Shown: piece after piece, positions 1 through 11,474 of the stretch | How the letters are laid out: each line of letters begins with the position of its first letter | Position numbering within the stretch: the stretch's first letter is position 1 | Assembly: GCA_002709835.1 (NCBI GenBank) | Contig: PAQX01000076.1 | Coordinates: forward strand, 2,985-66,984 | From: Deltaproteobacteria bacterium | GTDB taxonomy: Bacteria > Myxococcota_A > UBA9160 > UBA4427 | Length of the DNA stretch: 64,000 bases | Direction of reading: 5' to 3' | Made by a program: the position numbers and the translations under genes | The notes under the pieces: model-generated | What the model was told of the DNA's origin: nothing | The model's input: the letters and a program-made list of their open reading frames with translations, nothing else | Databases searched by the model: none

Positions 1-1187
1 CCGATTCGGAGCGAATCGAAGTCGAAGCGATCCGTCCGGTTCCAGAGATGCTTGTCGATGAACGCTTCCTGGAGCGTGAAGTGGTAGTCGAGGCGGTCGT
101 CGCCGGCCTTCGGGTCGAGCTTGACGGCGCCCAGCTGCTGGACCCAGACCTTGTTGACGTTGAGCGCCGGCGTGACCCGGATCTCCCAGTCCGGCGGCCG
201 GAAGGTCGTGTCGCCCTGGATCAGCGCGACGGACGTGAGCAGCGTCGTCTGGCTCTCCCAGGCGACGCCGTCGCCGAAGAGGTCGACCTCCTGATCGTTG
301 TCCCCCACCGCGCCCGTCGGGATCGGGATCCGCCGCGGCTCGAAGAGCTGATCCGCGACGACGCTCACGTTCACAAACCAGTCCTTGGTCCCCGGGATCG
401 GACGATCCGCCTTGAGCGTGTTCTGGTTGTACGGGTCGTACCACTTCTCGTTGACGCCGAGGTTCTCGACGATCCGCCAGCGGTCGGGCAGCGCGACGAA
501 CTCGTAGTCCGGAAGCTCGTTCTCGTAGGTCGGGGCGTTCCGGCGGCTCGGCCGCTTGCCGTCGCTCCGACGCGGCGGAGGCTCACCGGGCACCCACTCG
601 GAGCGCGGGATCGAACGCGGCTCGGGCTCGGCCCCGGGCGTCGAGCCCGAGTCCTGATCCGACTCCGCCCCCGGCCGCACGGGCGCGGGCCGGCGCGGCG
701 GAGGCGGCGGTTGCTGCTGGCGCGGCGCCGGCGTCCAGGAACCCTCGTCGAGGGGCGGCTCGGGCGCCGGCTGGACCGGCGCCGGAGGCGGCGCAACGGG
801 CGCGGGCTCGACCGGCGTCGGAACGCCGCCGGAGGACGTGTCGGGCTCCAGCGGTGCGACGGGCTGCTGGGTCGGCGCCGGCGGCGGTGCGGGCGGTCGC
901 TCCTGCCCGGCATCCCCCTGGCGACTCCCGCCGGGTCGCCGGCCGCGCGGCCGCCGTCGTCGGCGCGCCCGGGCGCCGTCGTCTTCGACGTCGGCCTGGG
1001 CCAGGAGCAGCTCGAAGACGGTCGGGGGCCTGAGCGTCTCTTCGACCGCCGCGACGTCGAGTCCGGGATCGGTCTCGGGATCGTCCGCGGGGCGCGAAGC
1101 GAAGCCCGCGTCCGCGCCGAGCATGGCGAGGGCGGTGACGCCAACGAAGAGGGAGCGGGAAAGTCCGGGTACGCGCTTCGCCCTCAT
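1..1187 (-). CDS. Secreted proline-rich protein (possible outer-membrane protein); 3' end lies beyond the window edge
   Basis: The ATG at 1187 overlaps the TGA of the upstream gene (ATGA). This minus frame is open down to position 1. It is codon-aligned with the spurious + ORF 48..1388, which contains no TTA, CTA or TCA codons. It is missing from the ORF track only because it has no stop in the window. The N-terminus MRAKRVPGLSRSLFVGVTALAMLGADAGFA looks like a signal peptide. About 130 aa of P/A/R-rich low complexity follow, then ordinary sequence (..WYDPYNQNTLKADRPIPGTKDWFVNVSVVADQLFEPRR..). No family recognised. Confidence 0.55.
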   Translation of the reverse strand, partial: MRAKRVPGLSRSLFVGVTALAMLGADAGFASRPADDPETDPGLDVAAVEETLRPPTVFELLLAQADVEDDGARARRRRRPRGRRPGGSRQGDAGQERPPAPPPAPTQQPVAPLEPDTSSGGVPTPVEPAPVAPPPAPVQPAPEPPLDEGSWTPAPRQQQPPPPPRRPAPVRPGAESDQDSGSTPGAEPEPRSIPRSEWVPGEPPPRRSDGKRPSRRNAPTYENELPDYEFVALPDRWRIVENLGVNEKWYDPYNQNTLKADRPIPGTKDWFVNVSVVADQLFEPRRIPIPTGAVGDNDQEVDLFGDGVAWESQTTLLTSVALIQGDTTFRPPDWEIRVTPALNVNKVWVQQLGAVKLDPKAGDDRLDYHFTLQEAFIDKHLWNRTDRFDFDSLRI

Positions 1188-3745
1188 CATCGTCCCTCGC
1201 ATCCGTTCTGCTCGTTGCTGCTCAGGAAGGGAGCGACCGGGCAGACCACGTATCGCAGGAACACGTTCTGGACGGAGATGTTGTCCGCGCGTTGGACGTC
1301 TGGGCGGCCATCGACGGGGGTCGTATCGACGCCGATCCGCGGCGAGTTCCCGATCGGGTTCGCGATGCTCCGCGGCGCGCGGGCCTGATCCCGGCCGACT
1401 TCGTCGAGCGCCACGAAGGGGACGAAGTCGTCCTGCTCGGCGCCATCGCCCGACACGCCGTAGGCCCCGACCAGGACCGCATCGCCCGTCGTGGAGTCGG
1501 TGCGGTAGATCGGAACCGCGCCCTGAAAGATGTGGAAGCCGTTCTGGAGGCCGGTGATGTTGCCCGAGCCAGCGGGGAAGTCCTGGGCCCCCTGGATGCA
1601 GTCGAGCTGGGCGCCCGCATCCGCCGAGCCGATCAGAAGGGTCCGGACGCCGTCGCAGAACGTGTCGCGCTGACCCACGTCGGTGAAGAGCGCGGCGCGA
1701 CCCCCGGGCGGCGGCGCGACGCCGAGGCCCGCGGCCGCGTTCAGGTCGAAGAGCACCCCCGCGAGATCCGGCACCTCTTCGCAGAGGCCGACGGCGATCC
1801 CGGGCAGCACGGTCTCGGTCTGGATCCCCGTCGAGAAAATGCTCCACTCGTCGACGTCGGGATTGCGGCTGAGGGGCCCGTTCTGGCCGGAGGCGACGCC
1901 GGGCGGGAAGTCAGGATTCGCGATCCCGCCTAGGGCGATCGAGGACCAGGCGAACTCCCCTTCGAAGAGCGGATCGGCGAGATCGAGTCCGAGGAAGGCT
2001 CGCGTATCGGCGAGGTACTGGTCGAAGGAGCGCGTGTTGAGCAGGTTGCCGTTGTTGCCGAGGGGATCGAACGCATCCTCGAGCTGGGTACGCGTGTCGT
2101 CCTTCGACCAGAACGCCGCCTGCCTCGTTTTCGCGATCGTGACGTCGACGCCGTCGAGGAGCGCGTCCTGGGAGCGCGCGAAACCGAGGACGTTGCCGTC
2201 GAGGTCGACGACCGCGACGTCGATCCGGGCCTGCCCGCCAAGCGGGCGGCGGGTCTGGGCGCGCGTGTTCTCCGCGAGCAGCAGCGCCTCGATCAGCAGC
2301 TCCTGCACGTCGGCGGCGGAGAGCCCGTCCGCCGGCGCCGGGTTCGCGGGATCCGCGGGCGGCGGGGGATTCATGCTGTCGATCGCGGGATACCGATCGG
2401 CTCCAACGGCATCGACGAGCTTCTCGCCGTTCGCCGTGCCGACGTAGCCGTTGCCAACGGCGACGTCGGTGTCGGCGAAGGTGTTGCCGACGACGCCCGA
2501 GGTCGGGTCGAGGAAGAAGACACCGGCGCGCGGTTCGGTGAAGGGGAAGAAGAACTGGTCGGAGACGAACTGGCCGGACCCCGAGCCGAGGGTGATCAGG
2601 CCGTTCAGGCGCGCGTTGATGGCGCCGATGTTGGCGACGTCCGCCGGGCTGATGACCGGCGCGGTCGCGCGCGAGGCCCGCCGCCCGGTGTCGTCGACCC
2701 AGCGAAGGGCGCGACCGGCGACGGTGATCCGGGAGGCCCGCCGCTCGGCGTCGGCATCGAAGCTCTCGGCGGCGGTCGCTCCGATCGTCGCGCCGTAGGC
2801 GATCCGCTCCTCGAGGTTGCGGTCGCGATCCGTGCCGTCGTTGTCGAGCCCGTAGATGCCGTTGAACTCGATGCCGACGGCGCCGACGACGACCTTGCCG
2901 ACGCGCCCGGTCGGCGTCCCACCAAGGAAGACCGGTGCGTCGAGCTCGGCGATGTTGTCCTTGTAAAGGGAGATCCCGCCCGGGTCCGCGGCGAAGCCGA
3001 CGGGCAGCCGGCGCGGGCCGATCAGATCGTTCGGGTCGTCCGCGACCGTCTCGTCGGCGATCTGGTTGACGCTCTGGCGCGTGTTGATGTCGCTGCAGAC
3101 GAGCTGGGCGATCTGGACCGCGAAGAGCGGGCCGCCCGGTCGATCGGTCTCGCCCGGGAAGAAGTTCTGCTGGATCAGCGTGCTCGCGGTCCGCGAGGTG
3201 AATGCGTTGCCCTGTGTGGAGAAGTAGTTGGAGGTCCCCGCCTTGCTGATCGCGGCATAGCCCGCCGGAATGAAGATCCCGTCGAGGGCCGTCTGGAGGG
3301 AGGTCAGGCCCGCGGTCGTCGCGACGGCCGCGAAGTCCGCGGAGCCCCCGTTGCTCTCGACGATGAAGGGCGTGTTCGCCGTGCGGTCCGGCGACTCGAC
3401 GGAGGTGATGAGGGAGTAGTTGGTCGTCGCCGCGTCGGTGTCGTAGACCGCGAGCACGTTCGAGAGGTGATCGAGGACGACGACCGTGATGTCCGGGATG
3501 CCGTTCGCTTCGGCTTCGTGGATCGCGTTCGCGATCACCTGCACGACGTCCTGGACGGTCAGCCGCGCTTCGACCCCGGCCGCTTCCGCCGGATACCCCA
3601 GCTCGGTCCCGTCCTGCGTGTAGTTGCATTGGAACTGGCAGACCTGGTTGTTCGACACGTTGCCGTCGGGGCAGCCGAGCAAGAGGCCCGTACCGAGGAG
3701 CGACGCGACGAGGGCGAGCGCGCCACGCGGGGAACGGGGGGTCAT
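1187..3745 (-). CDS. Lipoprotein with two GlcG/HbpS-like (DUF336, haem-binding family) modules
   Basis: Track ORF is 1187..3991. The internal ATG at 3745 gives MTPRSPRGALALVASLLGTGLLLGC, a signal peptide plus lipobox-like LLGC. DUF336-like strings occur twice. First copy: ITVVVLDHLSNVLAVYDTD ... PGGISLY ... VGAVGIE. Second copy: RIDVAVVDLDGNVLGFARSQDALLDGVDVTIAKTRQAAFWS ... GAVPIY ... LVGAYGVSGDGAEQDD. No CxxCH motif is present. Confidence 0.6.
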   Translation of the reverse strand: MTPRSPRGALALVASLLGTGLLLGCPDGNVSNNQVCQFQCNYTQDGTELGYPAEAAGVEARLTVQDVVQVIANAIHEAEANGIPDITVVVLDHLSNVLAVYDTDAATTNYSLITSVESPDRTANTPFIVESNGGSADFAAVATTAGLTSLQTALDGIFIPAGYAAISKAGTSNYFSTQGNAFTSRTASTLIQQNFFPGETDRPGGPLFAVQIAQLVCSDINTRQSVNQIADETVADDPNDLIGPRRLPVGFAADPGGISLYKDNIAELDAPVFLGGTPTGRVGKVVVGAVGIEFNGIYGLDNDGTDRDRNLEERIAYGATIGATAAESFDADAERRASRITVAGRALRWVDDTGRRASRATAPVISPADVANIGAINARLNGLITLGSGSGQFVSDQFFFPFTEPRAGVFFLDPTSGVVGNTFADTDVAVGNGYVGTANGEKLVDAVGADRYPAIDSMNPPPPADPANPAPADGLSAADVQELLIEALLLAENTRAQTRRPLGGQARIDVAVVDLDGNVLGFARSQDALLDGVDVTIAKTRQAAFWSKDDTRTQLEDAFDPLGNNGNLLNTRSFDQYLADTRAFLGLDLADPLFEGEFAWSSIALGGIANPDFPPGVASGQNGPLSRNPDVDEWSIFSTGIQTETVLPGIAVGLCEEVPDLAGVLFDLNAAAGLGVAPPPGGRAALFTDVGQRDTFCDGVRTLLIGSADAGAQLDCIQGAQDFPAGSGNITGLQNGFHIFQGAVPIYRTDSTTGDAVLVGAYGVSGDGAEQDDFVPFVALDEVGRDQARAPRSIANPIGNSPRIGVDTTPVDGRPDVQRADNISVQNVFLRYVVCPVAPFLSSNEQNGCEGR

Positions 3746-4034: not shown

Positions 4035-5951
4035 CTAATTCAGGCGGTCGAAAGGCGGATGGCGGACGTCACGCCAGCGGGATCCGGCCGAGTCCCGGTG
4101 CGCGCCGAAGCCGTTTCGGAAGAGCGCACGATGGATCGCCGCGCTGTCTCCGGACTCGATCTCCCCGGCGCCTTCCGCGGCGTCGGCGTCGGGCGTCGGC
4201 GGGACGAATGCGGGCTCGGCGTCGGCGATCGTGCCCATCGGTCCATTCGCCCGCACGTGAAAGGGATGACACATCGAGCACGGGCTCGGGACCTTCTCGC
4301 CCCCGCTCGCCGTCGCGCCCGCGTGACAATCCCGGCAGACCGCCACATCGGGAATCAGGATGTCCCCCGAGACCGTACTCACCCCGGTCGTCGGCTCGCG
4401 CGGGATCAGCTCGTACGGAATCGCGCCCTCGAGCGACCAGGACGGCCGAGCGAGGGAGGTGTCTTCCTCCGGATCGAAGACCCCGGCCGCCGGGTGGCAT
4501 TTCACGCACGCGAAGGGCGCATGGGAGCCGTGGCTGAAGATCGAGCCGGGGACCCAGACTTCCTGGACCTGGACCGGCGCAATCCCAATGCCCCCGTCGC
4601 TCGCCGCGCCCGGCGCGAGCGTATGACAGAGATCGCACGTACCCGGTCGCTCGTAGAAGCGCCGCTCCGCCGCGGCGACCTTGCCGTCGACCCATTTCCG
4701 GGAGAGCTCCGCCTCGTCGGCGGTCAGCCGCTTGCCCGGGCGCCGCAGACGCAGGCGGCGCGGGGCCGCGGGATCCTTCACATCGCCGTCGAGGACGCGA
4801 TTCGCGTAGAACCCGCGGATCCGATCCCGGATGACCGCGGGATCGCCATGGGGCACCGCGTTCTTCGGCGCGGTCGCGTCGAAGTCGAGCTGATGGCAGT
4901 CCTCGCAGTGATCCTCGAAGACGACGGGCTTCATATAGAGCCCCCCGGCATCGGGCTGATGACAGGCGCCGCACTGGAGGTATTGCTTCTCGTCGCCGCG
5001 CCCGCTGACCGCCTTGCCTACGTGTCGCAGGTGGCTGAACTCGAGACCCGAGACCTCGACGAGGTCCGGCGTGACGTCGACCGAGACGGCCTCCTCGGCG
5101 GGGTCCGTCACGAGGGCCAGCTGGAAGGGCGGATGGTCATCGCCAAAGTCGCTCGCGTTGCGGAGCGCCGTCGCGGGCAGCGTCGACGCGAGGTCGGAGT
5201 GGCAGTCGGCGCAGAATCCGGCCCCGAGGTCGGCGAGGTCAACCTGACGACCGCGATGCTCGAGATGGCAGGTCGCGCAGGACGCGTCGTCGAGCGCTTC
5301 CATGCTCATCGTCTGGGGAGCGTGCCGACCGATGTCGTGGTGGCAGGTCATGCAGTCCTGGTTCTGGACCGGGCGGAAGAGACCGGAGTGGCAGCTCTGA
5401 CAGTCGTTCTCGATGTAGGCGTGGCCGCGGCTCACGTCACCGGTGTTCCAGGGCGACTGCGCGCCCTCCCACGCGAGGGGGAGAAGAAGGAAGAGGGACA
5501 GAACCAGGACGATCCCCGCCCAGGCGAGCGGCCGCATCGCGAAGGCCCCGGACTCGAGACCGAGTCGCACCCGCGCGTCGAGGGCTGCACGTTCGTCTTC
5601 ACCGCGGTCGGTCTCTTCGTACTCGAGCGCGACGTCGAACTCACCGACGGACGTCGGCTCGATCACCCGCAGCTCCCACGAGCCGATCTTGAGGACGTCG
5701 CCGATCGCGAGGCGCTCGCCCTGACTCACGAGGCCGTTGCAGTTCACCTCCTGGCCCGGTGCCGCCTCGGCGTAGAGCCTTCCGTCCGCCATGCGAAGGG
5801 TCGCCTGGTGGAGGGAGATCGTGAGGCCCTTGAGGGAGAGGTCGTTGTCGGGACCTCGGCCGATGAAGAGCGATTCGACGTCGAGATCGCGATCGAGCCG
5901 GACCTTCTTTCCCGTCGGGCGCAGGCGGATCTCTGTCAGGCGTACGCGCAT
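4035..5951 (-). CDS. FHA domain - single TM - decahaem c-type cytochrome
   Basis: The N-terminal FHA signature is FIGRGPDNDLSLKGLTISLHQATL (G-R...S-x-x-H). A hydrophobic span follows at aa 139-161 (PLAWAGIVLVLSLFLLLPLAW). Ten CxxCH motifs then occur at aa 184, 200, 225, 247, 327, 349, 439, 482, 539 and 558: CQSCH, CMTCH, CATCH, CADCH, CGACH, CEDCH, CDLCH, CVKCH, CRDCH, CSMCH. The start ATG at 5951 overlaps the upstream stop (ATGA). Confidence 0.85.
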   Translation of the reverse strand: MRVRLTEIRLRPTGKKVRLDRDLDVESLFIGRGPDNDLSLKGLTISLHQATLRMADGRLYAEAAPGQEVNCNGLVSQGERLAIGDVLKIGSWELRVIEPTSVGEFDVALEYEETDRGEDERAALDARVRLGLESGAFAMRPLAWAGIVLVLSLFLLLPLAWEGAQSPWNTGDVSRGHAYIENDCQSCHSGLFRPVQNQDCMTCHHDIGRHAPQTMSMEALDDASCATCHLEHRGRQVDLADLGAGFCADCHSDLASTLPATALRNASDFGDDHPPFQLALVTDPAEEAVSVDVTPDLVEVSGLEFSHLRHVGKAVSGRGDEKQYLQCGACHQPDAGGLYMKPVVFEDHCEDCHQLDFDATAPKNAVPHGDPAVIRDRIRGFYANRVLDGDVKDPAAPRRLRLRRPGKRLTADEAELSRKWVDGKVAAAERRFYERPGTCDLCHTLAPGAASDGGIGIAPVQVQEVWVPGSIFSHGSHAPFACVKCHPAAGVFDPEEDTSLARPSWSLEGAIPYELIPREPTTGVSTVSGDILIPDVAVCRDCHAGATASGGEKVPSPCSMCHPFHVRANGPMGTIADAEPAFVPPTPDADAAEGAGEIESGDSAAIHRALFRNGFGAHRDSAGSRWRDVRHPPFDRLN

Positions 5952-6787
5952 CAGTGGTACCAGAAGACGACGAAGATGTGGACGAGGAGCGCTGCGCAGG
6001 TCGCGAACGCGAAGGGCACGTGGACGATCAGCCAGAGGTCGAGCAGGCTCTTGAAGCGGACGTCACGCCGGATCTGCTTGAGGAGCAGCTCCTTGCGCGC
6101 GATCAGCTCCACGAGCTTCCGCTCCTGCTCCTTCGCGTCGCCCGCGAGATCGATCTTGGACATCCGCAGACTCTTGAGCGCCAGGCTCGTTCCGCAGTCG
6201 GGATCGTGCCCCGAGAGCTGCGCGCGGACGGAGCCGCCGATCCGGGTCTCGTCGATCGAGGTCACGACCGCCTGGGCGTAGTAGTCGGGCAGTCCGTCCG
6301 CCGCCATCCGACACTCCGCGTCGATCTCCGCGATCCGCTCGAGCATCGCGTCGAGGGTGATGTTGTTCCGGTTGCGCGTTATCGAGGTCGGGACGAGGGC
6401 ATAGAACGCGACGCCCAGGATTCCGCTGAAGCAGACGACGAGCATGAGCACGTAGGCCAGCGTGTGGACGTTCCAGCCGAACTCGAAGGCCGAATGGAGC
6501 GGCACGAGGAAGATCAGCATCGTCCCGAGATAGACGTGCGCCGAGGTCCAGCCCTTGAGCGGCGCTCCCGCCGACGCGTAGTCGCGCTTCCTCACGCCGA
6601 GCCACATCAGCCAGAAGATGATCGCCGCGGCGATCGTCCCCAGGCCGTAGCCGGTCCAGGAGGAGCCGCTCCGGCCACCCGGCGGATCGTCGAAGACATA
6701 GGCCGCGAGCGAGAGGAAGAAGATCGCGAGGGCGACCTTCAGGTAGCGGTAGTTCTGGTATTCGAGGAAGGTGCGCGGCCCGATCAC
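5951..6787 (-). CDS. Integral membrane protein (5 predicted TM) with two H-x13-H helices; putative di-haem b-type electron-transfer subunit
   Basis: Track ORF is 5951..6853. A GTG at 6787 lies 4 nt after the TAG of the upstream gene (6792-6794). Hydrophobic spans are LKVALAIFFLSLAAYVF, GTIAAAIIFWLMWLGV, HVYLGTMLIFLVPLH, TLAYVLMLVVCFSGILGVAFYALV and WLIVHVPFAFATCAALLVHIFVVFW. His106/His120 and His278/His292 (ORF-track numbering) are each 14 residues apart. A hydrophilic, partly coiled loop of about 110 aa sits between TM4 and TM5. Confidence 0.7.
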   Translation of the reverse strand: MIGPRTFLEYQNYRYLKVALAIFFLSLAAYVFDDPPGGRSGSSWTGYGLGTIAAAIIFWLMWLGVRKRDYASAGAPLKGWTSAHVYLGTMLIFLVPLHSAFEFGWNVHTLAYVLMLVVCFSGILGVAFYALVPTSITRNRNNITLDAMLERIAEIDAECRMAADGLPDYYAQAVVTSIDETRIGGSVRAQLSGHDPDCGTSLALKSLRMSKIDLAGDAKEQERKLVELIARKELLLKQIRRDVRFKSLLDLWLIVHVPFAFATCAALLVHIFVVFWYH

Positions 6788-6791
6788 GCGA

Positions 6792-9700
6792 CTAGCCCTG
6801 TCTTTCGTAGATCTCGTCGACGTACTCGCCGGGATCGATGCGGACGATGGCACCAGTCGGGCAGGATGCGACGCAGGCGGCCCGCGCCGCGCCGCTCTTC
6901 TTGGCCGGGAGCTCCCGGCAGAGGTCGCACTTCACGGCCTTCTTGATCGCCGCCGCACCGCCCTCTTCCGGCTTCGGCGCATCGGCCTTCTTCGTCGCGC
7001 GACGCGGGAAGAGCAGACGCATCAGGAGACCCGGTCCCGGATCGTCGTCCACCTTCGCCATCTTGATCACGTCGTAGGGGCAGTAGGCCTCGCAGTTGCC
7101 GCAGCCGATGCAGGTCTCGTCGTTGATCCAGACCTCGCCGTTCGGATCGCGGTTGAGCGCGTCCGGCGGACAGTCGGTCATGCACTTCGGGTTCTCGCAG
7201 TGCTGACACGCGGTCGGCAGATGGAGCGCGCTGCCCGCGCTCGTCATGTAGGTCGCGCCCGCTTCGCGGTTCAGTCGCGATACGCCGCCGTGGGTCTCGG
7301 CGCAGGCCTTCTCGCAGTTGTCGCACCGGACGCAGAGCGTCTCGTCGATAATCAGGAGGTCGGTCGCTTCTTTCCCGCCCGCCTTCTGCAGCCACATCAT
7401 CGTCCCGCGCCCGTGCTGACGACGCGCATCCGCGATGATGAACTCCTGCTCCTTGAGTTCGAGGAACTCGCGCAGCTCGCGATGCTGCTCGACGAGCTGG
7501 ATCATCACGTCCTTCGGGAAGAGGACGGTCTCGCAGTCCACGCCGGCCCGCGCCGTCGCCGAGCGCGCCTGATCCGGATGGAGCACGGCCATCTCGCCGA
7601 GGGTCGAGCCCGCTCGAAGGGAGTCGATCTGCTCCTCGACGCCCTCGTGCTTCTTGTAGACCTCGGCCGTGCCGCGGCGGATGAGATGGAGCCCGTCCGG
7701 ATCGTCCCCCTCGGAGAAGATCGTCTCTCCGGCGCGGTGAAGGATCGTCTCGGATCGGCTCGCGAGGAGCTTGCGTGCGCTGGCGTCGAGACTCGGGAAG
7801 AGCGTGGCGAGGGCGGTGTTCACGTAGGCCGCATCGATCACCCGCTTCACGTCCTCGACGGACCGGATGAGCTTCGCCATCGAGCTGCGCGGCGTCTCGA
7901 TCAGGATGCAGGGCGAGGTCGTCGTCACGGTCTCGCCCCGACGTCGCCCCGAGATCAGGCCGTCTTCGCCGAAGAACTGCCCCGTGCCCCGGGTCGCCTT
8001 GCGCTCCGCCCGAAGCTCCTCGGGAATCGTCGGGTCGGAGTTGTCGACCCAGGCGAGCTCGACGTCGCCCTCGATGATCGAGAAGAAGGTGTTGTCGAAG
8101 TCGGCGCGCTGGTAGACGACGGTGCCGGGCGGGACGATCCGGATCTTCGACTCGAAGATCAACTGACGGAGCTGGACCGACGTGAGGGGCGCGAGAGTCG
8201 GGATCGTGTTCTGGATCCGGTCGAGGTTCTCGCTGACGCTGCCTCCGACCTCACGGAACTTCTGGGCCAGGACCGGCTCGTCGGCGGGCTTCACGTCGGC
8301 GCCGAGGATGTGCTCGACGACCTCGAATCCCTGGTTCATGCAGTTCTTGATCAGCGGATAACCGACCAGGGCACCGACCATGTAGATGCCCGGGATGTTC
8401 GACTCGTACTTGTCCGAGACGTCCGGGATGGCCTCCTTGTCGTTGCTCGGGAACGAGATGCCCGTCGTCTCGAGGAAGGCCCGCGGCGGCGTCGCGCCGA
8501 GACGACCGATCACGAGGTCGCAGGGAACCGTGACCTCTTCGCCGTCCTTCGTCTTGAAGACCGCCGTGTCGCTCTCGAACCGGTCCGCGCTCGCGTTCGT
8601 GAGATAGGCGATCTCCCCCGACTTGATCTTCGCTTCGATCGCGGCCTTGTTCATCGGCTTCGCGCGGTCGAACTCGTCGCGGCGGTTCACGATCGTGACT
8701 TCGTTGCCGTTCTCCGCGAGGGCGATCGCGTTCTCGATCCCCGCGTCGCCGACGCCGACGACGATCACGCGCTTGTCTTCGTATGCCTTGGGATCGTCGA
8801 GCTGATAGGTCACCCAGGGCTGATCGTCGCCTGGTACCCCGAACTTCCGCAGGTCGCCCTGGACGCCGATCGAGAGGACGATGTGGGTCGCCTCGACGGT
8901 CTCGGCGCCGTTCGGGCCCCGCACCGAAATCCGGAACGCGCCCTTCTCGCCTTCGATCGCGAGGATCTCGGTCGCTTCGACGAGGTTCGTCCCGGCGTCG
9001 CGAACGGCCGTCTCCCACCACTTGAGCACCTGTTCGCGGACGGCCTCCTCGAAGATCATCTTGAGGTCCGACTGCAGCGGCAGCTGCGGCGGCTCGGCCA
9101 TCACGAACTTGCCCTTCTGGTACTTCACGATCGTGTCCGCGAGGACCGACCGCTCGTAGAGGGCATGGTTCACCCCGCGCTCCGCCGCGCGGACCCCGGC
9201 GGCGATGCCGGCGGGACCGGCGCCGATGATCGCGAGCGAAACGCTCGACGGATCCGGCGGTGGCTCGTCGACCGAGACCGGGCGCATGATGAAAGCGCTC
9301 GTGACTTCGGGCCCTTCGGCCGCTTCGATCGTCGCCATCGGCGCCGGCGCCGCGCGCACGGGCGCGACCGTCTCGGGCTCGGGCGAGGGCGAGGGCGAGG
9401 GCGAGGGCGGGACCGGTTCCGGCGGCGCTTCGACGGGCTCGGCCGCCGCGGCGACCGGCTCCGGCGGATCGTCGACCCGACCGACCCGGGTCTCGTCCAC
9501 GCTCGCCGGGGTGGCGTCCCCAGTCTCCGAAGGCGCGTCCTCCGCCGCCTCGATGCGCAGTCGCAGGACGACGCGGTCCGCGAGTTGGATCTCTTCGCCG
9601 CCCGCGAGCTCGAGGCGGTCGGTGATCTGCACGCCGTTCACCAGGGTGCGGTTCACCTGGCTCTTGTGGACGAGAACGAGGGTCTCGCCCTCCCAGACGA

Positions 9701-9848
9701 GCTCGGCGTGGAGGCGCGAGATGCTCTGGTCCGCGAGCTGGATGTCGCAGGCGAGTCCGCGACCGAGGGTGGTCGTCTCCGGACCGACGTCGAACGACTG
9801 TCCCGCCTGGTCCGGCAGACCACCCATGATGGTCAACGTGGCGCGCAT
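6792..9848 (-). CDS. Multidomain redox sensor protein: FHA, P/A/E-rich linker, TrxR-like FAD/NAD(P)H oxidoreductase (no CxxC), 2x cyclic-nucleotide-binding-like domains, 4x[4Fe-4S] ferredoxin domain
   Basis: Track ORF is 6792..9854 (TTG start). The ATG at 9848 gives MRATLTIMGG.
- FHA: LGRGLACDIQLADQSISRLHAELV (about nt 9854-9555).
- Rossmann 1: IIGAGPAGIAAG (about nt 9224).
- Rossmann 2: VIVVGVGDAGIENAIALAENGNEVTIVNRR.
- cNMP-like segments: ..FFGEDGLISGRRRGETVTT.. and ..LGEMAVLHPDQARSATARA.. (about nt 8192-7455).
- Cys clusters (about nt 7343-6840): CVRCDNCEKAC, CQHCENPKCMTDCP, CIGCGNCEAYCP, CDLC..CVASCP. Confidence 0.85.
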   Translation of the reverse strand: MRATLTIMGGLPDQAGQSFDVGPETTTLGRGLACDIQLADQSISRLHAELVWEGETLVLVHKSQVNRTLVNGVQITDRLELAGGEEIQLADRVVLRLRIEAAEDAPSETGDATPASVDETRVGRVDDPPEPVAAAAEPVEAPPEPVPPSPSPSPSPEPETVAPVRAAPAPMATIEAAEGPEVTSAFIMRPVSVDEPPPDPSSVSLAIIGAGPAGIAAGVRAAERGVNHALYERSVLADTIVKYQKGKFVMAEPPQLPLQSDLKMIFEEAVREQVLKWWETAVRDAGTNLVEATEILAIEGEKGAFRISVRGPNGAETVEATHIVLSIGVQGDLRKFGVPGDDQPWVTYQLDDPKAYEDKRVIVVGVGDAGIENAIALAENGNEVTIVNRRDEFDRAKPMNKAAIEAKIKSGEIAYLTNASADRFESDTAVFKTKDGEEVTVPCDLVIGRLGATPPRAFLETTGISFPSNDKEAIPDVSDKYESNIPGIYMVGALVGYPLIKNCMNQGFEVVEHILGADVKPADEPVLAQKFREVGGSVSENLDRIQNTIPTLAPLTSVQLRQLIFESKIRIVPPGTVVYQRADFDNTFFSIIEGDVELAWVDNSDPTIPEELRAERKATRGTGQFFGEDGLISGRRRGETVTTTSPCILIETPRSSMAKLIRSVEDVKRVIDAAYVNTALATLFPSLDASARKLLASRSETILHRAGETIFSEGDDPDGLHLIRRGTAEVYKKHEGVEEQIDSLRAGSTLGEMAVLHPDQARSATARAGVDCETVLFPKDVMIQLVEQHRELREFLELKEQEFIIADARRQHGRGTMMWLQKAGGKEATDLLIIDETLCVRCDNCEKACAETHGGVSRLNREAGATYMTSAGSALHLPTACQHCENPKCMTDCPPDALNRDPNGEVWINDETCIGCGNCEAYCPYDVIKMAKVDDDPGPGLLMRLLFPRRATKKADAPKPEEGGAAAIKKAVKCDLCRELPAKKSGAARAACVASCPTGAIVRIDPGEYVDEIYERQG
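9375..9410. repeat. In-frame hexanucleotide tandem repeat (GGGCGA x4 with imperfect flanking copies) encoding PSPSPSPSPEPE in the linker of the FHA-flavoprotein
   Basis: The direct read is gggctc gggcga gggcga gggcga gggcga gggcgg at 9375-9410. Confidence 0.8.
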
Positions 9849-10358
9849 GGACAAGCTGACTCACCCCTCTAGCCGCGCGATTCCGAAACAGGAAGGGCGG
9901 CCCCCGAACGATTCTATGCCACGTGGACCGAGGAAATCACCTGCGCGTGGAGCGCACGGGACCCTCGGAGCACACCCGCACGGCGCGCACGAATCGAGTC
10001 GGTACCCGCGACGCGCCGGAGGGAGTCCATGGGACCGCACCCGGCGCGGGAGCACATGAAGGGAAGGCGGTCTAGGCCGACCCGCCGTCCACGGGGAGTG
10101 CCGGAGCGGTCCCGCCCGTTCCGCCCCCGCCGCTCGGCTCGGATCCCGCCCCGTCGCCTCCGCTCGCGCTCCCGGCCCACCCCTCGACCCTTATGAGAAT
10201 CTTTCAGCCTCCTCGGCGCCCGCTCCGGCCAAGCAAGTCCGCTCCTCGGAATAATTGTGGCAAAAAGCCTCCTGCCAATCCTCAAGGGAGCCCCTCGGCC
10301 GGTCGATTTCTCGTGCGAATCCGACAGTTTGGCCCTGGCCCGCGAGTCGGGAGGAAAC

Positions 10359-11474
10359 GTGTCCGCCCACCTGAAGTTCTTCGAGCTCGAGCAGTCCCCC
10401 TTCGAAGGGAAGGCCCAGAGCAAGGTCGTCCTCGGGACGCGCGCCCTGCGTGAAGCGTTCGGCACGATTCGAAGCGGCATCGACGAGGGGGCCTCGCGCC
10501 TCTGTGTGAGCGGCAACGCCGGCCTCGGCAAGACCAGCCTCGCCCGGGCGCTCCCCAAGCTCCTCGGTGACGCGGCTCGCGTGGCGAACGTCCTCGATGC
10601 CAGGGTCGAATGGCCCGCCTGCCGCGAACTCATCGCGCGCCAGTGGGACCTCGACGCGGGTCGCCTCTCGCGCGCCGCGCTCATCGAGGCCCGTACGGAC
10701 CGCCGCCTGGTGCTCGTGATCGACCAGGCCGAGCGGGCCAGCGAAGACTTCCTCGACCATCTCGACGTCCTGCTCAGCTACCGCACCGAGACCGACACGC
10801 CCGTCGTCCAGAGCGTGCTGCTCGCGAACCTCGAGACCCGCGAAGGCGGCACGCCCGTCCCGCTCCTCTGCTGGCTCGATCGGACCCAGACGCTTCAACT
10901 CGAATTCGCGCCGCTCCCCCGCGACGGCGTCGCGTCCTACATCGCCAAACATCTCCGGCGCGCCGGCTGGCGCGGCGAAGCCCTGTTCAGCGAGGACGCG
11001 GGCTTCGCGATCCACGACTACGCGGGCGGCGTACCCGGCGAGATCTCCGCGCTCTGCGAACGACTGCTCGTTGAGGCGGCCTCGGTCGAGCCCGCGGTGC
11101 CGCTCGCCTCCCCGGAGAAGGGCTTCGTCGATGCCGACGCGCTCGCGCAGCTTCCGCCGGAGGTGCTCGCCAACGCGATCGCCGCGGCCGAGGCCCTCGC
11201 GCCGATCGTCGAGAGCGAGCCCGAATCCGCACGCCTCGCGCGAGTTGAACCGCCGGTCACGCAAGCGACGCCCGAAAAGAACGAACCGGCGGTCAGGGTC
11301 GTAGCGAGCGAGGCGAGCGACCCGGACGCCGGAAACGGGGAATCTCCCCTCGGCGGAGCGAACGAGACCGCCGCGCCGGCGGAAGCCCAGACGAGTAACC
11401 CCGAGAGGTCGGATTCGATTCCGGCCTCGCCAGAGCCTCTCCCTGCCGTTCCGGACGAGGAGCGTTTCTGGTAG
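10359..11474 (+). CDS. ExeA/GspA-like AAA ATPase with acidic P/A/E-rich C-terminal tail
   Basis: Track ORF is 10257..11474. A GTG at 10359 is preceded by GGAGGAAAC. The N-terminus ..HLKFFELEQSPFEGKAQSKVVLGTRALREAFGTIRSGIDEGASRLCVSGNAGLGKTSLARAL matches the ExeA pattern (FGL.e.PF ... then Walker A GxxGxGKT). The last roughly 110 aa are low complexity. Confidence 0.65.
   Translation: MSAHLKFFELEQSPFEGKAQSKVVLGTRALREAFGTIRSGIDEGASRLCVSGNAGLGKTSLARALPKLLGDAARVANVLDARVEWPACRELIARQWDLDAGRLSRAALIEARTDRRLVLVIDQAERASEDFLDHLDVLLSYRTETDTPVVQSVLLANLETREGGTPVPLLCWLDRTQTLQLEFAPLPRDGVASYIAKHLRRAGWRGEALFSEDAGFAIHDYAGGVPGEISALCERLLVEAASVEPAVPLASPEKGFVDADALAQLPPEVLANAIAAAEALAPIVESEPESARLARVEPPVTQATPEKNEPAVRVVASEASDPDAGNGESPLGGANETAAPAEAQTSNPERSDSIPASPEPLPAVPDEERFW

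What the first reader, a model, noticed from the sequence alone, without database searches (positions are those of the whole stretch)
6792..9854. Five-module fusion protein: FHA + disulfide-less TrxR-like flavoprotein + 2x cNMP-binding + 4x[4Fe-4S]
Seen in sequence, approximate domain order along one 1018-aa polypeptide:
- aa 1-100: FHA (GR...S..H signature).
- aa 101-205: P/A/E-rich linker.
- aa 206-520: flavoprotein with GAGPAG and GVGDAG Rossmann motifs. No CxxC occurs between them.
- aa 555-800: two cNMP-like beta-barrel segments, each with a G-E...R-S/T-A-like phosphate-binding cassette (FGEDGLISGRRRGETV; LGEMAVLHPDQARSATA).
- aa 838-1005: four Cys clusters. The pattern is CxxCxxCxxxC, CxxCx4CxxxCP, CxxCxxCxxxCP and CxxC..CxxxCP, as in DmsB/NrfC/HybA-type subunits.

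Those subunits normally dock on membrane quinol-oxidising partners. Inference: NAD(P)H oxidation and Fe-S wire output are joined in one chain, under allosteric control from both cyclic nucleotides and protein phosphorylation. That is an unusual concentration of regulation on a redox enzyme.
Basis: partly seen in the sequence, partly recalled or inferred. Interest (0 to 1): 0.65.

Follow-up and report, generated by a model that had tools for sequence, protein, structure and literature searches.

The report
Signal-gated NADPH feeder of cytochrome conduit
The five-module protein is real and is probably the regulated cytoplasmic entry point that passes electrons from NADPH, through iron-sulfur clusters, into a conserved chain of haem proteins crossing the cell envelope; the family is widespread, has been noticed in the literature, and has never been tested.

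Summary
A 1018-aa minus-strand gene (6792-9848) encodes five modules:
- a canonical FHA domain;
- a disordered Pro/Ala/Glu linker;
- a YpdA/TrxR-fold flavoprotein with no CxxC;
- two cNMP-binding domains, each above Pfam's threshold, with conserved phosphate-binding cassettes;
- 16 invariant Cys arranged for four [4Fe-4S] clusters.

It is not an isolated oddity. It heads a conserved, translationally coupled cluster:
- a 5-TM protein with four invariant His (two H-x13-H pairs);
- an FHA-TM-decahaem cytochrome c;
- an HbpS-like lipoprotein;
- a secreted protein that looks like an outer-membrane barrel;
- a large multihaem cytochrome.

Among 41 related genomes, the 5-TM gene occurs in exactly the 16 that carry the fusion, and is always adjacent to it.

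The core (flavoprotein + 2 CNB + Fe-S, about 810 aa) spans Myxococcota, Acidobacteriota, Proteobacteria and Chloroflexota. It was catalogued in 2007 as the 'Bact_Pyrredox' CNB subfamily. Related clusters are mentioned, with function unknown, in two preprints.

Best reading: a cNMP- and phospho-threonine-controlled NADPH-to-periplasm (probably extracellular) electron-export module. It works like NADPH oxidase or Fre-MsrQ but is built from unrelated parts. All functional steps are inferred.

The parts
6792..9848 (-). Whole gene: 1018-aa FHA / linker / flavoprotein / CNB1 / CNB2 / 4x[4Fe-4S] fusion (stop codon 6792-6794).
   Evidence: There is a 100% identical 1018-aa database gene call, P0003.
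9549..9848 (-). FHA domain (aa 1-100) with the canonical pThr-binding residues G-R, S-R-x-H and N-x-T.
   Evidence: Pfam PF00498 scores 47.6 bits. The residues are conserved in 18 FHA-bearing homologues. AlphaFold pLDDT is 95-97.
9240..9548 (-). Pro/Ala/Glu-rich linker (aa 101-203), including a (PS)n repeat.
   Evidence: Residues 104-178 have pLDDT below 50. Composition is given. Its length varies among homologues, whose totals run from 956 to 1072 aa.
8289..9239 (-). YpdA/TrxR-fold FAD + NAD(P)H flavoprotein (aa 204-520). Motifs: GAGPAG (FAD), GVGDAG and VNRRDEFDRAK (NADPH-type). No CxxC.
   Evidence: Pfam and NCBIfam results are. Foldseek best hit is YpdA/Bdr 7a76/7a7b, TM 0.84. YpdA Cys14 aligns to Ala213.
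7809..8216 (-). CNB1 (aa 545-680), with phosphate-binding cassette FFGEDGLISGRRRGETV. The Arg triad is nearly invariant.
   Evidence: PF00027 scores 38.4 bits when scanned alone. Conservation is shown. It matches the 'Bact_Pyrredox' cassette consensus GEMGLISGRRRGATVRA.
7419..7781 (-). CNB2 (aa 690-810), with the canonical phosphate-binding cassette GEMAVLHPDQARSATA.
   Evidence: PF00027 scores 70.4 bits when scanned alone. G751 is invariant, and E752, R762 and A764 are kept in at least 90% of 109 homologues. Together with CNB1 it matches the tandem CNBs of PKA regulatory subunits in the PDB.
6795..7376 (-). Four-cluster ferredoxin module (aa 825-1018), with 16 Cys in four [4Fe-4S] motifs. There is no Tat signal, so it is cytoplasmic.
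   Evidence: Pfam Fer4_11 and related models are. PDB sequence hits include HycB 7z0s_B, ArrB 6cz7_B and NrfC 2vpw_B. All 16 Cys are invariant in 34 homologues; in 109 homologues 15 are invariant and C845 is at least 90%.
5951..6787 (-). 278-aa 5-TM membrane protein. Its GTG start lies 4 nt after the fusion's stop. It has four invariant His (H84/H98 and H256/H270, each pair H-x13-H), so it is a candidate di-haem b transmembrane wire. A cytoplasmic insert of about 110 aa lies between TM4 and TM5.
   Evidence: Pfam PF01292 is marginal at 30.7 against a cut-off of 30.1. Co-occurrence and adjacency with the fusion are perfect: 16 of 16 carriers and 0 of 25 non-carriers. A fold search was inconclusive.
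4035..5951 (-). 638-aa FHA + one TM + periplasmic decahaem cytochrome c (10 CxxCH). Its ATG overlaps the stop of the preceding gene (TGATG).
   Evidence: It is conserved downstream of the 5-TM gene in L003-L005, L007 and L010-L012.
1187..3745 (-). 852-aa lipoprotein (lipobox LLGC) with HbpS/GlcG-like modules.
   Evidence: It is syntenic in 7 other loci.
1..1217 (-). 5' part of a gene of about 760 aa: signal peptide, Pro-rich spacer, and a C-terminus ending ...NATFTY, which resembles an outer-membrane barrel. It continues past the window start. A large multihaem cytochrome gene follows on the contig.
   Evidence: L049 is G000:C76:1-4900. The conserved C-terminal part is syntenic in L003-L005, L007 and L010-L012. 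No Pfam match was found.
9849..10256 (.). 408-nt region between the fusion gene and a divergent ExeA-like AAA ATPase gene; the presumed promoter region.
   Evidence: No CRP-type box was found above chance.

Best explanation
The protein is the cytoplasmic, regulated electron-input subunit of a trans-envelope cytochrome conduit.

**Proposed path**
1. NADPH reduces FAD in the YpdA/TrxR-fold domain. This domain has no redox disulfide, so it acts as a dehydrogenase rather than a disulfide reductase.
2. Single electrons pass along the four [4Fe-4S] clusters of the C-terminal module.
3. That module docks on the cytoplasmic face of the adjacent 5-TM protein. Its two predicted b haems, held by two H-x13-H pairs on TM3 and TM5, carry electrons across the inner membrane.
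4. The membrane-anchored decahaem cytochrome c accepts the electrons.
5. They pass on to the HbpS-like lipoprotein, the barrel-like protein and the large multihaem cytochrome encoded downstream.

**Direction**: outward flow is favoured both by redox potential and by the membrane potential. An open conduit would drain NADPH and dissipate membrane potential, which would explain the heavy gating.

**Proposed gating**
- The tandem CNB domains lie between the flavin and Fe-S modules. They are proposed to set the flavin-to-cluster geometry in response to a cyclic nucleotide.
- The FHA domain is canonical here. Other FHA copies sit on the cytochrome, or on a separate neighbouring gene in other lineages. 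FHA is proposed to tie assembly or activity to Ser/Thr-kinase signalling.

**Shown**: domain identities, motif conservation, synteny and co-occurrence.
**Inferred**: cofactor content, electron path and direction, ligand identity and the gating mechanism.
For: **Domains and motifs**
- Domain assignments.
- No CxxC in the flavoprotein; 16 cluster Cys, all invariant in 34 homologues and 15 invariant plus one at >=90% in 109.
- Flavoprotein fold is closest to YpdA/Bdr (TM 0.84), then to TrxR-type ferredoxin-NADP reductases.
- TrxR-like NADPH motif VNRRDEFDRAK, with N388 invariant and R389 at >=90% in 109 homologues.
- The AlphaFold model is confident (pLDDT 83.8, pTM 0.71), with only the linker disordered.
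- Phosphate-binding-cassette residues are conserved in both CNB domains.
- FHA pThr-binding residues are conserved.

**Operon**
- A 4-nt gap, then a TGATG overlap, couple the first three genes.
- The same gene order (fusion, 5-TM, FHA-decahaem, HbpS-like, barrel-like) occurs in loci titled Stellaceae, Thermoanaerobaculia, biocathode Alphaproteobacteria and Proteobacteria, and in three loci (L003-L005) whose phylum the tools did not report. A truncated Sulfotelmatobacter locus shows the start of the same order.
- The 5-TM protein has four invariant His.

**Phyletic profile in 41 related genomes**
- A strong 5-TM match occurs in exactly the 16 genomes that carry the fusion, is always adjacent to it, and is duplicated where the fusion is duplicated. 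It occurs in 0 of 25 others.
- Three apparent orphans (Limnocylindrales, Lysobacter, Thermoflexus) each still have one strong 5-TM homologue elsewhere in the genome.

**Other recurring links**
- Stand-alone homologues of the flavoprotein (about 30% identity) also sit beside 18-34-haem cytochromes.
- FHA recurs in three forms: fused here, a separate upstream gene in L011, and a second C-terminal FHA on the L011 cytochrome.
- The genome encodes at least 5 Hanks kinases and one FHA-GAF-class III cyclase.
Against: - There is no biochemical or genetic data for any member.
- The 5-TM protein matches Pfam PF01292 only marginally. Its AlphaFold model is weak (pLDDT 70) and found no significant structural neighbour, so 'di-haem b' rests on the His pattern alone.
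- CNB1 replaces the usual Ser/Thr-Ala after the cassette Arg with Gly-Glu in this clade and carries an invariant Arg triad, so its ligand may not be cAMP or cGMP.
- The FHA on the cytochrome lacks the conserved Ser/His in many lineages.
- The genus-wide FHA-GAF cyclase is present whether or not the cluster is, so no specific cyclase partner is identified.
- The cluster also occurs in an Fe(II) oxidiser and a biocathode MAG, where inward electron flow might be expected.
Confidence: 0.6

Rival explanations
1. **Reverse direction.** The conduit brings electrons in from an extracellular or periplasmic donor such as Fe(II), a cathode or a partner cell. The flavoprotein then reduces NAD(P)+ for biosynthesis.
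For: Related clusters occur in the Fe(II)-oxidising autotroph Ferrigenium and in a MAG named as coming from a biocathode (L012). TrxR-type FNRs are reversible enzymes (established knowledge).
Against: - Electron transfer from cytochromes c to NADP+ (about -320 mV) is uphill.
- Moving electrons from the positive outer side to the negative inner side through a two-haem wire also works against the membrane potential.
- No energy-coupling element (quinone site, ion pump, bifurcating second flavin) was seen in the cluster.
Confidence: 0.1
2. **Redox-signalling device rather than a bulk electron conduit.** The haem chain reports extracellular or periplasmic redox state to the cytoplasmic flavo-Fe-S protein. 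The FHA and CNB domains are outputs or adaptors to kinase and cNMP networks.
For: - HbpS-type proteins act in redox sensing (HbpS-SenS-SenR; established knowledge), and an HbpS-like protein is a conserved cluster member.
- Three different FHA arrangements and two CNB domains make an unusually high signalling content.
Against: - Four Fe-S clusters, two b haems, ten c haems and a further large multihaem cytochrome are far more wire than a sensor needs.
- The NADPH-binding motif is strictly conserved.
- No DNA-binding or kinase output domain is found in the cluster.
Confidence: 0.1
3. **The CNB domains are not cyclic-nucleotide sensors.** They bind another ligand or serve only as a structural spacer between the flavin and Fe-S modules. 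Known CNB-fold precedents are haem (CooA), 2-oxoglutarate (NtcA) and c-di-GMP (Clp). The rest of the electron-input model would still hold.
For: - In this clade CNB1 has RRR-G-E where canonical cassettes have R-[ST]-A, and its Arg triad is nearly invariant family-wide.
- No cyclase co-varies with the cluster.
- CNB-fold proteins with other ligands are well known (named's paper).
Against: - CNB2 has a fully canonical cassette (GE.A.L...R-[ST]-A-T) that is conserved across phyla.
- Many FHA-less members have RRRSAT in CNB1, which contains the canonical R-S-A-T.
- Both domains pass Pfam's threshold.
- Cyclase genes flank the L005 locus.
Confidence: 0.25
4. **A soluble, self-contained NADPH:acceptor oxidoreductase.** Possible roles include a regulated ferredoxin-like reductase or a sulfur or metal reductase. 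Its proximity to the cytochrome genes would be incidental.
For: In two or three genomes the fusion gene is not adjacent to the membrane genes (L001/L002, L008, L009).
Against: - Those same genomes each retain one strong 5-TM homologue.
- Co-occurrence is perfect in 41 relatives, with adjacency in all 16 carriers.
- The genes are translationally coupled here.
Confidence: 0.05

Closest known systems
'Bact_Pyrredox' CNB subfamily (Kannan et al. 2007, Genome Biol 8:R264, PMC2246266)
   Same: [quoted passage not shown]
- The published cassette consensus GEMGLISGRRRGATVRA matches CNB1 here, GEDGLISGRRRGETV.
   Different: - The catalogue entry mentions neither the Fe-S module, nor the FHA domain, nor the gene neighbourhood, and gives no function.
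- The window protein adds the FHA domain and linker.
ptdABCDEFG cluster of oxygen-deficient-zone Alphaproteobacteria (bioRxiv 10.1101/2023.11.21.568154) and the FHA-nonahaem / 5-TM / [4Fe-4S] trio of Ferrigenium straubiae (bioRxiv 10.64898/2026.01.22.701106)
   Same: - The same cast: an FAD/NAD(P) oxidoreductase, a CNB + Fe-S protein, a transmembrane ferric-reductase-like protein, a decahaem (or FHA-nonahaem) cytochrome and a porin.
- Function is stated to be unknown in both preprints.
   Different: - In ptd the flavoprotein (PtdC) and the CNB/Fe-S protein (PtdE) are separate genes. Here they are one chain with an extra FHA domain.
- The HbpS-like lipoprotein is not listed for ptd.
- Sequence-level orthology to Ptd proteins could not be tested because no Ptd sequences were available.
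YpdA/Bdr bacillithiol-disulfide reductase and TrxR-type ferredoxin-NADP+ reductases (YumC, 2zbw, 3ab1)
   Same: - A two-Rossmann FAD/NADPH fold without the TrxR CxxC.
- Best structural match: TM 0.84 to 7a76/7a7b.
- TrxR-type FNRs exchange electrons with Fe-S ferredoxins, which is what the fused Fe-S module implies here.
   Different: - It scores 153 bits against a TIGR04018 cut-off of 339.9.
- YpdA Cys14 is Ala213 here.
- It is fused to CNB, Fe-S and FHA modules rather than standing alone as a tetramer.
- The host is Myxococcota, not a bacillithiol-producing Firmicute.
Four-cluster ferredoxin subunits (HycB/HydN, FdnH, NrfC, DmsB) and Fe-S + NADPH-flavoprotein fusions such as AegA/YgfT
   Same: - 16 Cys in four [4Fe-4S] motifs.
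- Sequence hits to HycB, ArrB, NrfC and the AegA N-terminus.
- The logic of a linear Fe-S wire that docks on a membrane haem or quinone subunit.
   Different: - It is cytoplasmic and C-terminally fused, with no Tat signal.
- No equivalog cut-off is reached.
- The partner is a new 5-TM protein with four invariant His, not NrfD, DmsC or FdnI.
- AegA has the opposite domain order and a GltD-type flavoprotein.
NADPH oxidase / ferric reductase (NOX, FRE) and Fre-MsrQ (functional analogues only)
   Same: The proposed path matches: cytoplasmic NAD(P)H, then flavin, then two stacked b haems on His pairs of two TM helices (H-x13-H), then an acceptor outside. NOX enzymes are also tightly regulated (established knowledge).
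   Different: - The parts are unrelated. The dehydrogenase has a TrxR fold rather than an FNR fold, and there is an added four-cluster wire.
- The membrane protein shows no detectable fold or sequence match to the ferric-reductase domain.
- The acceptor is a multihaem cytochrome chain, not O2 or MsrP.

Membership tests
Low-Mr thioredoxin reductase (TIGR01292) | Redox-active CxxC (CATC) in the NADPH domain | tested here: not met
   There is no CxxC in residues 204-520. Only the single Cys 443 and 503 occur there, and neither is invariant.
Low-Mr thioredoxin reductase (TIGR01292) | Family HMM score above the curated cut-off | tested here: not met
   76 bits against a cut-off of 343.45.
Low-Mr thioredoxin reductase (TIGR01292) | FAD GxGxxG and NADPH GxGxxA/G + HRRxxxR motifs | tested here: met
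   The motifs are GAGPAG, GVGDAG and VNRRDEFDRAK. N388 is invariant and R389 is kept in at least 90% of 109 homologues.
YpdA/Bdr (TIGR04018) | Family HMM score above the curated cut-off | tested here: not met
   153 bits against a cut-off of 339.9. It is nonetheless the best-scoring NCBIfam model.
YpdA/Bdr (TIGR04018) | Monomer fold of YpdA crystal structures | tested here: met
   Foldseek against 7a76/7a7b gives E 1e-26 and a target TM of 0.84-0.85.
YpdA/Bdr (TIGR04018) | Conserved Cys14 in GxGPCG. It is needed for activity in S. aureus, though its catalytic role is disputed. | tested here: not met
   It aligns to Ala213; the family consensus is G-x-G-P-[AGS]-G. Background is from the preprint read.
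Cyclic nucleotide-binding domain (PF00027), 'Bact_Pyrredox' subfamily | Two CNB domains C-terminal to a Pyr_redox domain, each above the Pfam gathering score | tested here: met
   38.4 and 70.4 bits against a cut-off of 27.5. Both domains are present in every full-length relative scanned.
Cyclic nucleotide-binding domain (PF00027), 'Bact_Pyrredox' subfamily | Phosphate-binding cassette: Gly-Glu and Arg conserved; subfamily signature GLISGRRR | tested here: met
   G627 and G751 are invariant. E628, R635-R637, E752 and R762 are kept in at least 90% of 109 homologues.
Cyclic nucleotide-binding domain (PF00027), 'Bact_Pyrredox' subfamily | Actual binding of cAMP or cGMP | not testable with these tools
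   This needs ITC, DRaCALA or a crystal structure.
FHA domain (PF00498) | HMM above cut-off and pThr-contacting residues (Arg of G-R, Ser and His of S-x-x-H, Asn of N-x-T) | tested here: met
   47.6 bits against a cut-off of 20.7. The residues are conserved in the 18 FHA-bearing homologues aligned.
Four-cluster [4Fe-4S] ferredoxin subunits (Fer4_11; HycB/NrfC/DmsB type) | Sixteen Cys in four CxxCxxCxxxC(P)-type groups | tested here: met
   The positions are 839-849, 881-893, 913-923 and 974-996. All 16 are invariant in 34 homologues; in 109 homologues 15 are invariant and C845 is at least 90%.
Four-cluster [4Fe-4S] ferredoxin subunits (Fer4_11; HycB/NrfC/DmsB type) | Membership of a named equivalog (NrfC, DmsB, HybA, HydN, AegA) | tested here: not met
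   All scores are 43-65 bits, against cut-offs of 200-1000.
Prokaryotic cytochrome b561 / Ni_hydr_CYTB (PF01292), for the adjacent 5-TM protein | HMM above cut-off, and a di-haem four-His pattern | tested here: inconclusive
   30.7 bits against a cut-off of 30.1. Four His are invariant, as two H-x13-H pairs. The AlphaFold model is weak and Foldseek found nothing at E<=0.001.
ptd cluster (PtdC/E/F/G) | Sequence orthology to the named Ptd proteins | not tested
   No Ptd sequences were in reach. The resemblance rests on the domain descriptions in the preprint and on split CNB+Fe-S relatives of 460-510 aa.

The most novel reading that the evidence does not exclude
The cluster is a quinone-independent 'electron export valve'. 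It sends cytoplasmic NADPH electrons straight through Fe-S clusters, two b haems and about 20 or more c haems to the cell surface.

It opens only when two signals coincide: a cyclic nucleotide bound to the CNB pair, and a phospho-threonine mark read by the FHA domains, which assemble the flavo-Fe-S subunit onto the cytochrome and membrane subunits.

This would be a bacterial functional counterpart of NADPH oxidase, built from unrelated parts. It would also be the first extracellular electron-transfer route with built-in second-messenger and kinase gating.
Probability: 0.3. Interest if true: 0.8.

Novelty: new variant of a known kind. Interest (0 to 1): 0.6.

Why it matters
- Known routes for extracellular electron transfer start at the quinone pool and are regulated mainly at the level of transcription.
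- A widespread conduit fed directly by NADPH, and switched post-translationally by a cyclic nucleotide and Ser/Thr phosphorylation, would be a new way for bacteria to control redox balance, metal or mineral reduction, or periplasmic reducing power.
- The module occurs in Myxococcota, Acidobacteriota, Alpha-, Beta- and Gammaproteobacteria and Chloroflexota, including an Fe(II) oxidiser and a biocathode community, so it may matter for iron cycling and bioelectrochemistry.
- It is a compact, soluble, testable entry point (one protein with FAD, 4 Fe-S clusters and 2 CNB domains) for studying allosteric gating of intramolecular electron transfer.

Tried and rejected
1. **Fold of the 5-TM protein.** The AlphaFold model from 9 sequences was weak (pLDDT 70). 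Foldseek against the PDB found nothing at E<=0.001. Membership of a known cytochrome b or ferric-reductase fold could therefore not be shown.
2. **Specific cyclase partner.** The genome's only class III cyclase is an FHA-GAF-cyclase, which looked like a link. It is present in all 25 species of the genus, including the 10 without the cluster. No phyletic link was found.
3. **CRP-type box in the 408-nt upstream region.** None was found. Window-wide matches were at or below chance.
4. **TrxR or Bdr membership.** Rejected: no CxxC, Cys14 replaced by Ala, and HMM scores far below the cut-offs.
5. **'Orphan' fusion genes as evidence for a stand-alone enzyme.** Rejected, because those genomes keep a strong 5-TM homologue.
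6. **FHA as a single late gain in Myxococcota.** Not supported. On a core-only tree the FHA label needs at least 5-6 changes, and FHA-bearing forms sit on several deep branches. Some changes may be truncated gene calls.
7. **FAD-to-cluster distance in the model.** Not possible, because model coordinates are not exposed.

Full report
**Observation**

The longest frame runs 6792-9854 from a TTG. An identical 1018-aa database gene call and all homologues begin at the ATG at 9848.

Pfam places the domains as follows:
- FHA at 28-91;
- a pyridine-nucleotide oxidoreductase at 206-509;
- two cNMP-binding domains;
- 4Fe-4S dicluster models over 833-1008.

Scanned on their own, the two CNB segments score 38.4 and 70.4 bits against a gathering score of 27.5.

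The protein has 21 Cys. Sixteen form the four quoted motifs, and none forms a CxxC within residues 204-520. An AlphaFold model built on 109 homologues is confident (mean pLDDT 83.8, pTM 0.71). Only the Pro/Ala/Glu linker, residues 104-178, is disordered.

**The modules in detail**

*FHA domain.* It keeps the pThr-contacting Arg (G-R), Ser and His (S-R-x-H) and Asn (N-x-T) in all 18 FHA-bearing homologues aligned.

*Flavoprotein.*
- Its closest sequence and structure matches are YpdA/Bdr (TIGR04018, 153 bits, below the 339.9 cut-off; Foldseek TM 0.84 to 7a76/7a7b). Thioredoxin reductases and TrxR-type ferredoxin-NADP reductases come next.
- YpdA itself lacks a CxxC. Its debated Cys14 aligns to Ala213 here.
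- The NADPH-domain motif GVGDAG...VNRRDEFDRAK resembles the TrxR HRRxxxR 2'-phosphate site. N388 is invariant and R389 is kept in at least 90% of 109 homologues. From this I infer a preference for NADPH.

*CNB domains.*
- CNB2 has a canonical cassette, GE.A.L...R-[ST]-A-T.
- CNB1 has FFGE..LISGRRR. Its Arg triad is nearly invariant. Many FHA-less members read RRRSAT, whereas this clade reads RRRGET.

*Fe-S module.* All 16 cluster Cys are invariant in 34 homologues. In 109 homologues 15 are invariant and C845 is kept in at least 90%. The module is most similar to the cytoplasmic four-cluster proteins HycB, HydN and the AegA N-terminus, as well as to NrfC, ArrB and DmsB. No equivalog cut-off is reached.

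**Context**

The gene is the first of a same-strand cluster:
- *5-TM protein (5951-6787, 278 aa).* Its GTG start lies four nucleotides after the fusion's stop. It has four invariant His arranged as two H-x13-H pairs on TM3 and TM5, and a cytoplasmic insert of about 110 aa.
- *Cytochrome (4035-5951, 638 aa).* Its ATG overlaps the stop of the 5-TM gene (TGATG). It has a cytoplasmic FHA domain, one TM helix and ten CxxCH motifs.
- *Lipoprotein (852 aa).* It has HbpS/GlcG-like modules.
- *Secreted Pro-rich protein (about 760 aa).* It ends ...NATFTY, which resembles an outer-membrane barrel.
- *Large multihaem cytochrome.* It is cut off by the contig end.

The same five-gene order follows the fusion in loci titled Stellaceae, a biocathode Alphaproteobacterium, a Proteobacteria MAG and Thermoanaerobaculia, and in three loci (L003-L005) whose phylum the tools did not report. 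A truncated Sulfotelmatobacter locus shows the start of the same order.

In Thermoflexus (Chloroflexota), multihaem cytochrome genes lie directly upstream instead.

**Co-occurrence tests**

- In 41 related genomes, the fusion is present in 16: 15 of 25 species of the genus and 1 of 16 other genera of the order.
- A strong match to the 5-TM protein (E below 1e-100) occurs in exactly those 16. It is always adjacent to the fusion, and it is present twice in the one genome that has two fusion genes. The other 25 genomes have none, or only remote paralogues.
- Three genomes in which the fusion looked orphaned (Limnocylindrales, Lysobacter, Thermoflexus) each still carry one strong 5-TM homologue elsewhere.
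- Stand-alone homologues of the flavoprotein (about 30% identity) also sit next to cytochromes with 18-34 haem motifs in Planctomycetota, Nitrospirae, Alphaproteobacteria and Hydrogenophilales MAGs.

These results make a physical or functional partnership between the flavo-Fe-S protein, the 5-TM protein and multihaem cytochromes the best-supported conclusion of this work.

**Distribution and prior knowledge**

- The word-indexed search returned more than 2300 significant hits. They comprise FHA-bearing forms at 43-98% identity and FHA-less cores of about 810 aa at about 50% identity. Some are named only 'NAD(P)-binding domain-containing protein' or 'cyclic nucleotide-binding domain-containing protein'.
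- The exhaustive search of 50%-identity representatives gave 611 clusters at E<=1e-30. These include dozens of full-length cores and also split CNB+Fe-S proteins of 460-510 aa.
- On a tree built from core columns only, FHA presence needs at least 5-6 changes and occurs on several deep branches.
- In a Thermoanaerobaculia locus, the FHA is a separate gene just upstream of the core. The cytochrome there has a second TM helix and a second, canonical C-terminal FHA. FHA control is therefore a recurrent trait of the system.
- Kannan et al. 2007 catalogued the flavoprotein + tandem-CNB architecture as 'Bact_Pyrredox', with the cassette consensus GEMGLISGRRRGATVRA.
- A 2024 preprint named a related ptdABCDEFG operon with split PtdC and PtdE proteins.
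- A 2026 preprint on Ferrigenium noted an FHA-nonahaem cytochrome next to a 5-TM protein and a [4Fe-4S] protein.
- None of these sources reports a function. Further literature searches found no characterisation.

**Mechanism proposed**

1. NADPH reduces FAD.
2. With no redox disulfide available, electrons leave one at a time into the four-cluster wire.
3. The wire docks on the cytoplasmic face of the 5-TM protein.
4. Two b haems, ligated by H84/H256 and H98/H270, carry electrons across the membrane.
5. The decahaem cytochrome and the outer components carry them onward.

Outward flow is downhill in redox potential, and it is assisted by the membrane potential. Inward flow to NADP+ would be uphill on both counts, and no coupling device is visible in the cluster. 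An open conduit would waste NADPH and membrane potential, which gives a rationale for the gating modules.

The CNB pair sits between the flavin and the wire. It resembles the tandem CNBs of PKA regulatory subunits, which undergo large ligand-driven rearrangements (established knowledge). FHA domains would tie assembly or activity to Hanks kinases, of which this 77%-complete genome encodes at least five.

Shown: domain identities, motif conservation, synteny and co-occurrence. Everything about cofactors, direction, ligand and gating is inference.

**Weak points**

- The 5-TM protein matches PF01292 only marginally (30.7 against a cut-off of 30.1). Its model was weak and had no structural neighbour.
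- The CNB1 cassette is atypical in this clade.
- The cytochrome's FHA lacks the conserved Ser/His in many lineages.
- The genome's single class III cyclase is an FHA-GAF-cyclase, but it is genus-wide regardless of whether the cluster is present.
- No CRP-like box lies upstream.

**Verdict**

The protein is best understood as the input subunit of a larger, conserved, uncharacterised electron conduit.

It is a new (FHA-fused, single-chain) variant of a family already catalogued by sequence and mentioned in preprints. It is not a new kind. Interest is moderate to high, because the system is widespread, mechanistically unusual (NADPH-fed, apparently quinone-independent and second-messenger-gated) and directly testable.

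Noticed in passing
own genome, G000:C19 (locus L048:1360-3147): The only class III nucleotide cyclase found in this 77%-complete genome is a 595-aa FHA-GAF-cyclase. It is conserved in all 25 species of the genus, so it is a core gene and not specific to the electron-conduit cluster.
   Followed up: yes
L011:8505-9461 and L011:13202-15586 (Thermoanaerobaculia MAG): The FHA-less core gene here is preceded by a separate gene whose product carries a canonical C-terminal FHA domain. The decahaem cytochrome has a second TM helix and a second, canonical C-terminal FHA domain (FHA-TM-10 haem-TM-FHA).
   Followed up: partly
window 4035-5951 (minus strand), aa 1-98: The cytochrome's own FHA keeps the G-R Arg. 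The canonical S-x-x-H Ser/His is not conserved across phyla; this copy reads ISLHQA. It may be a phospho-independent docking module.
   Followed up: partly
window 10257-11474 (+): An ExeA/GspA-like AAA ATPase (best match the XrtA/PEP-CTERM-associated ATPase model, 97.6 bits, below its cut-off) is divergently transcribed from the fusion gene. The same arrangement is seen in a close relative (L003) but not in distant ones.
   Followed up: no
They are a possible local source of the cyclic nucleotide.
   Followed up: no
L014-L018; also G005:C8:4039-4836 and 8184-8480: A second, more distant cluster type pairs a stand-alone YpdA-like flavoprotein (about 30-36% identity) with cytochromes of 18-34 haem motifs, and in some loci with a remote paralogue of the 5-TM protein. 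Some genomes of the window's genus carry both types.
   Followed up: partly
window 7250-7330 (minus strand), aa 846-864: The segment CEKACAETHGGVSRLNREAG between the first and second Cys groups is almost invariant family-wide (T852, H853, R858, R861, G864). It is a family-specific signature and a possible docking or flavin-proximal surface.
   Followed up: no
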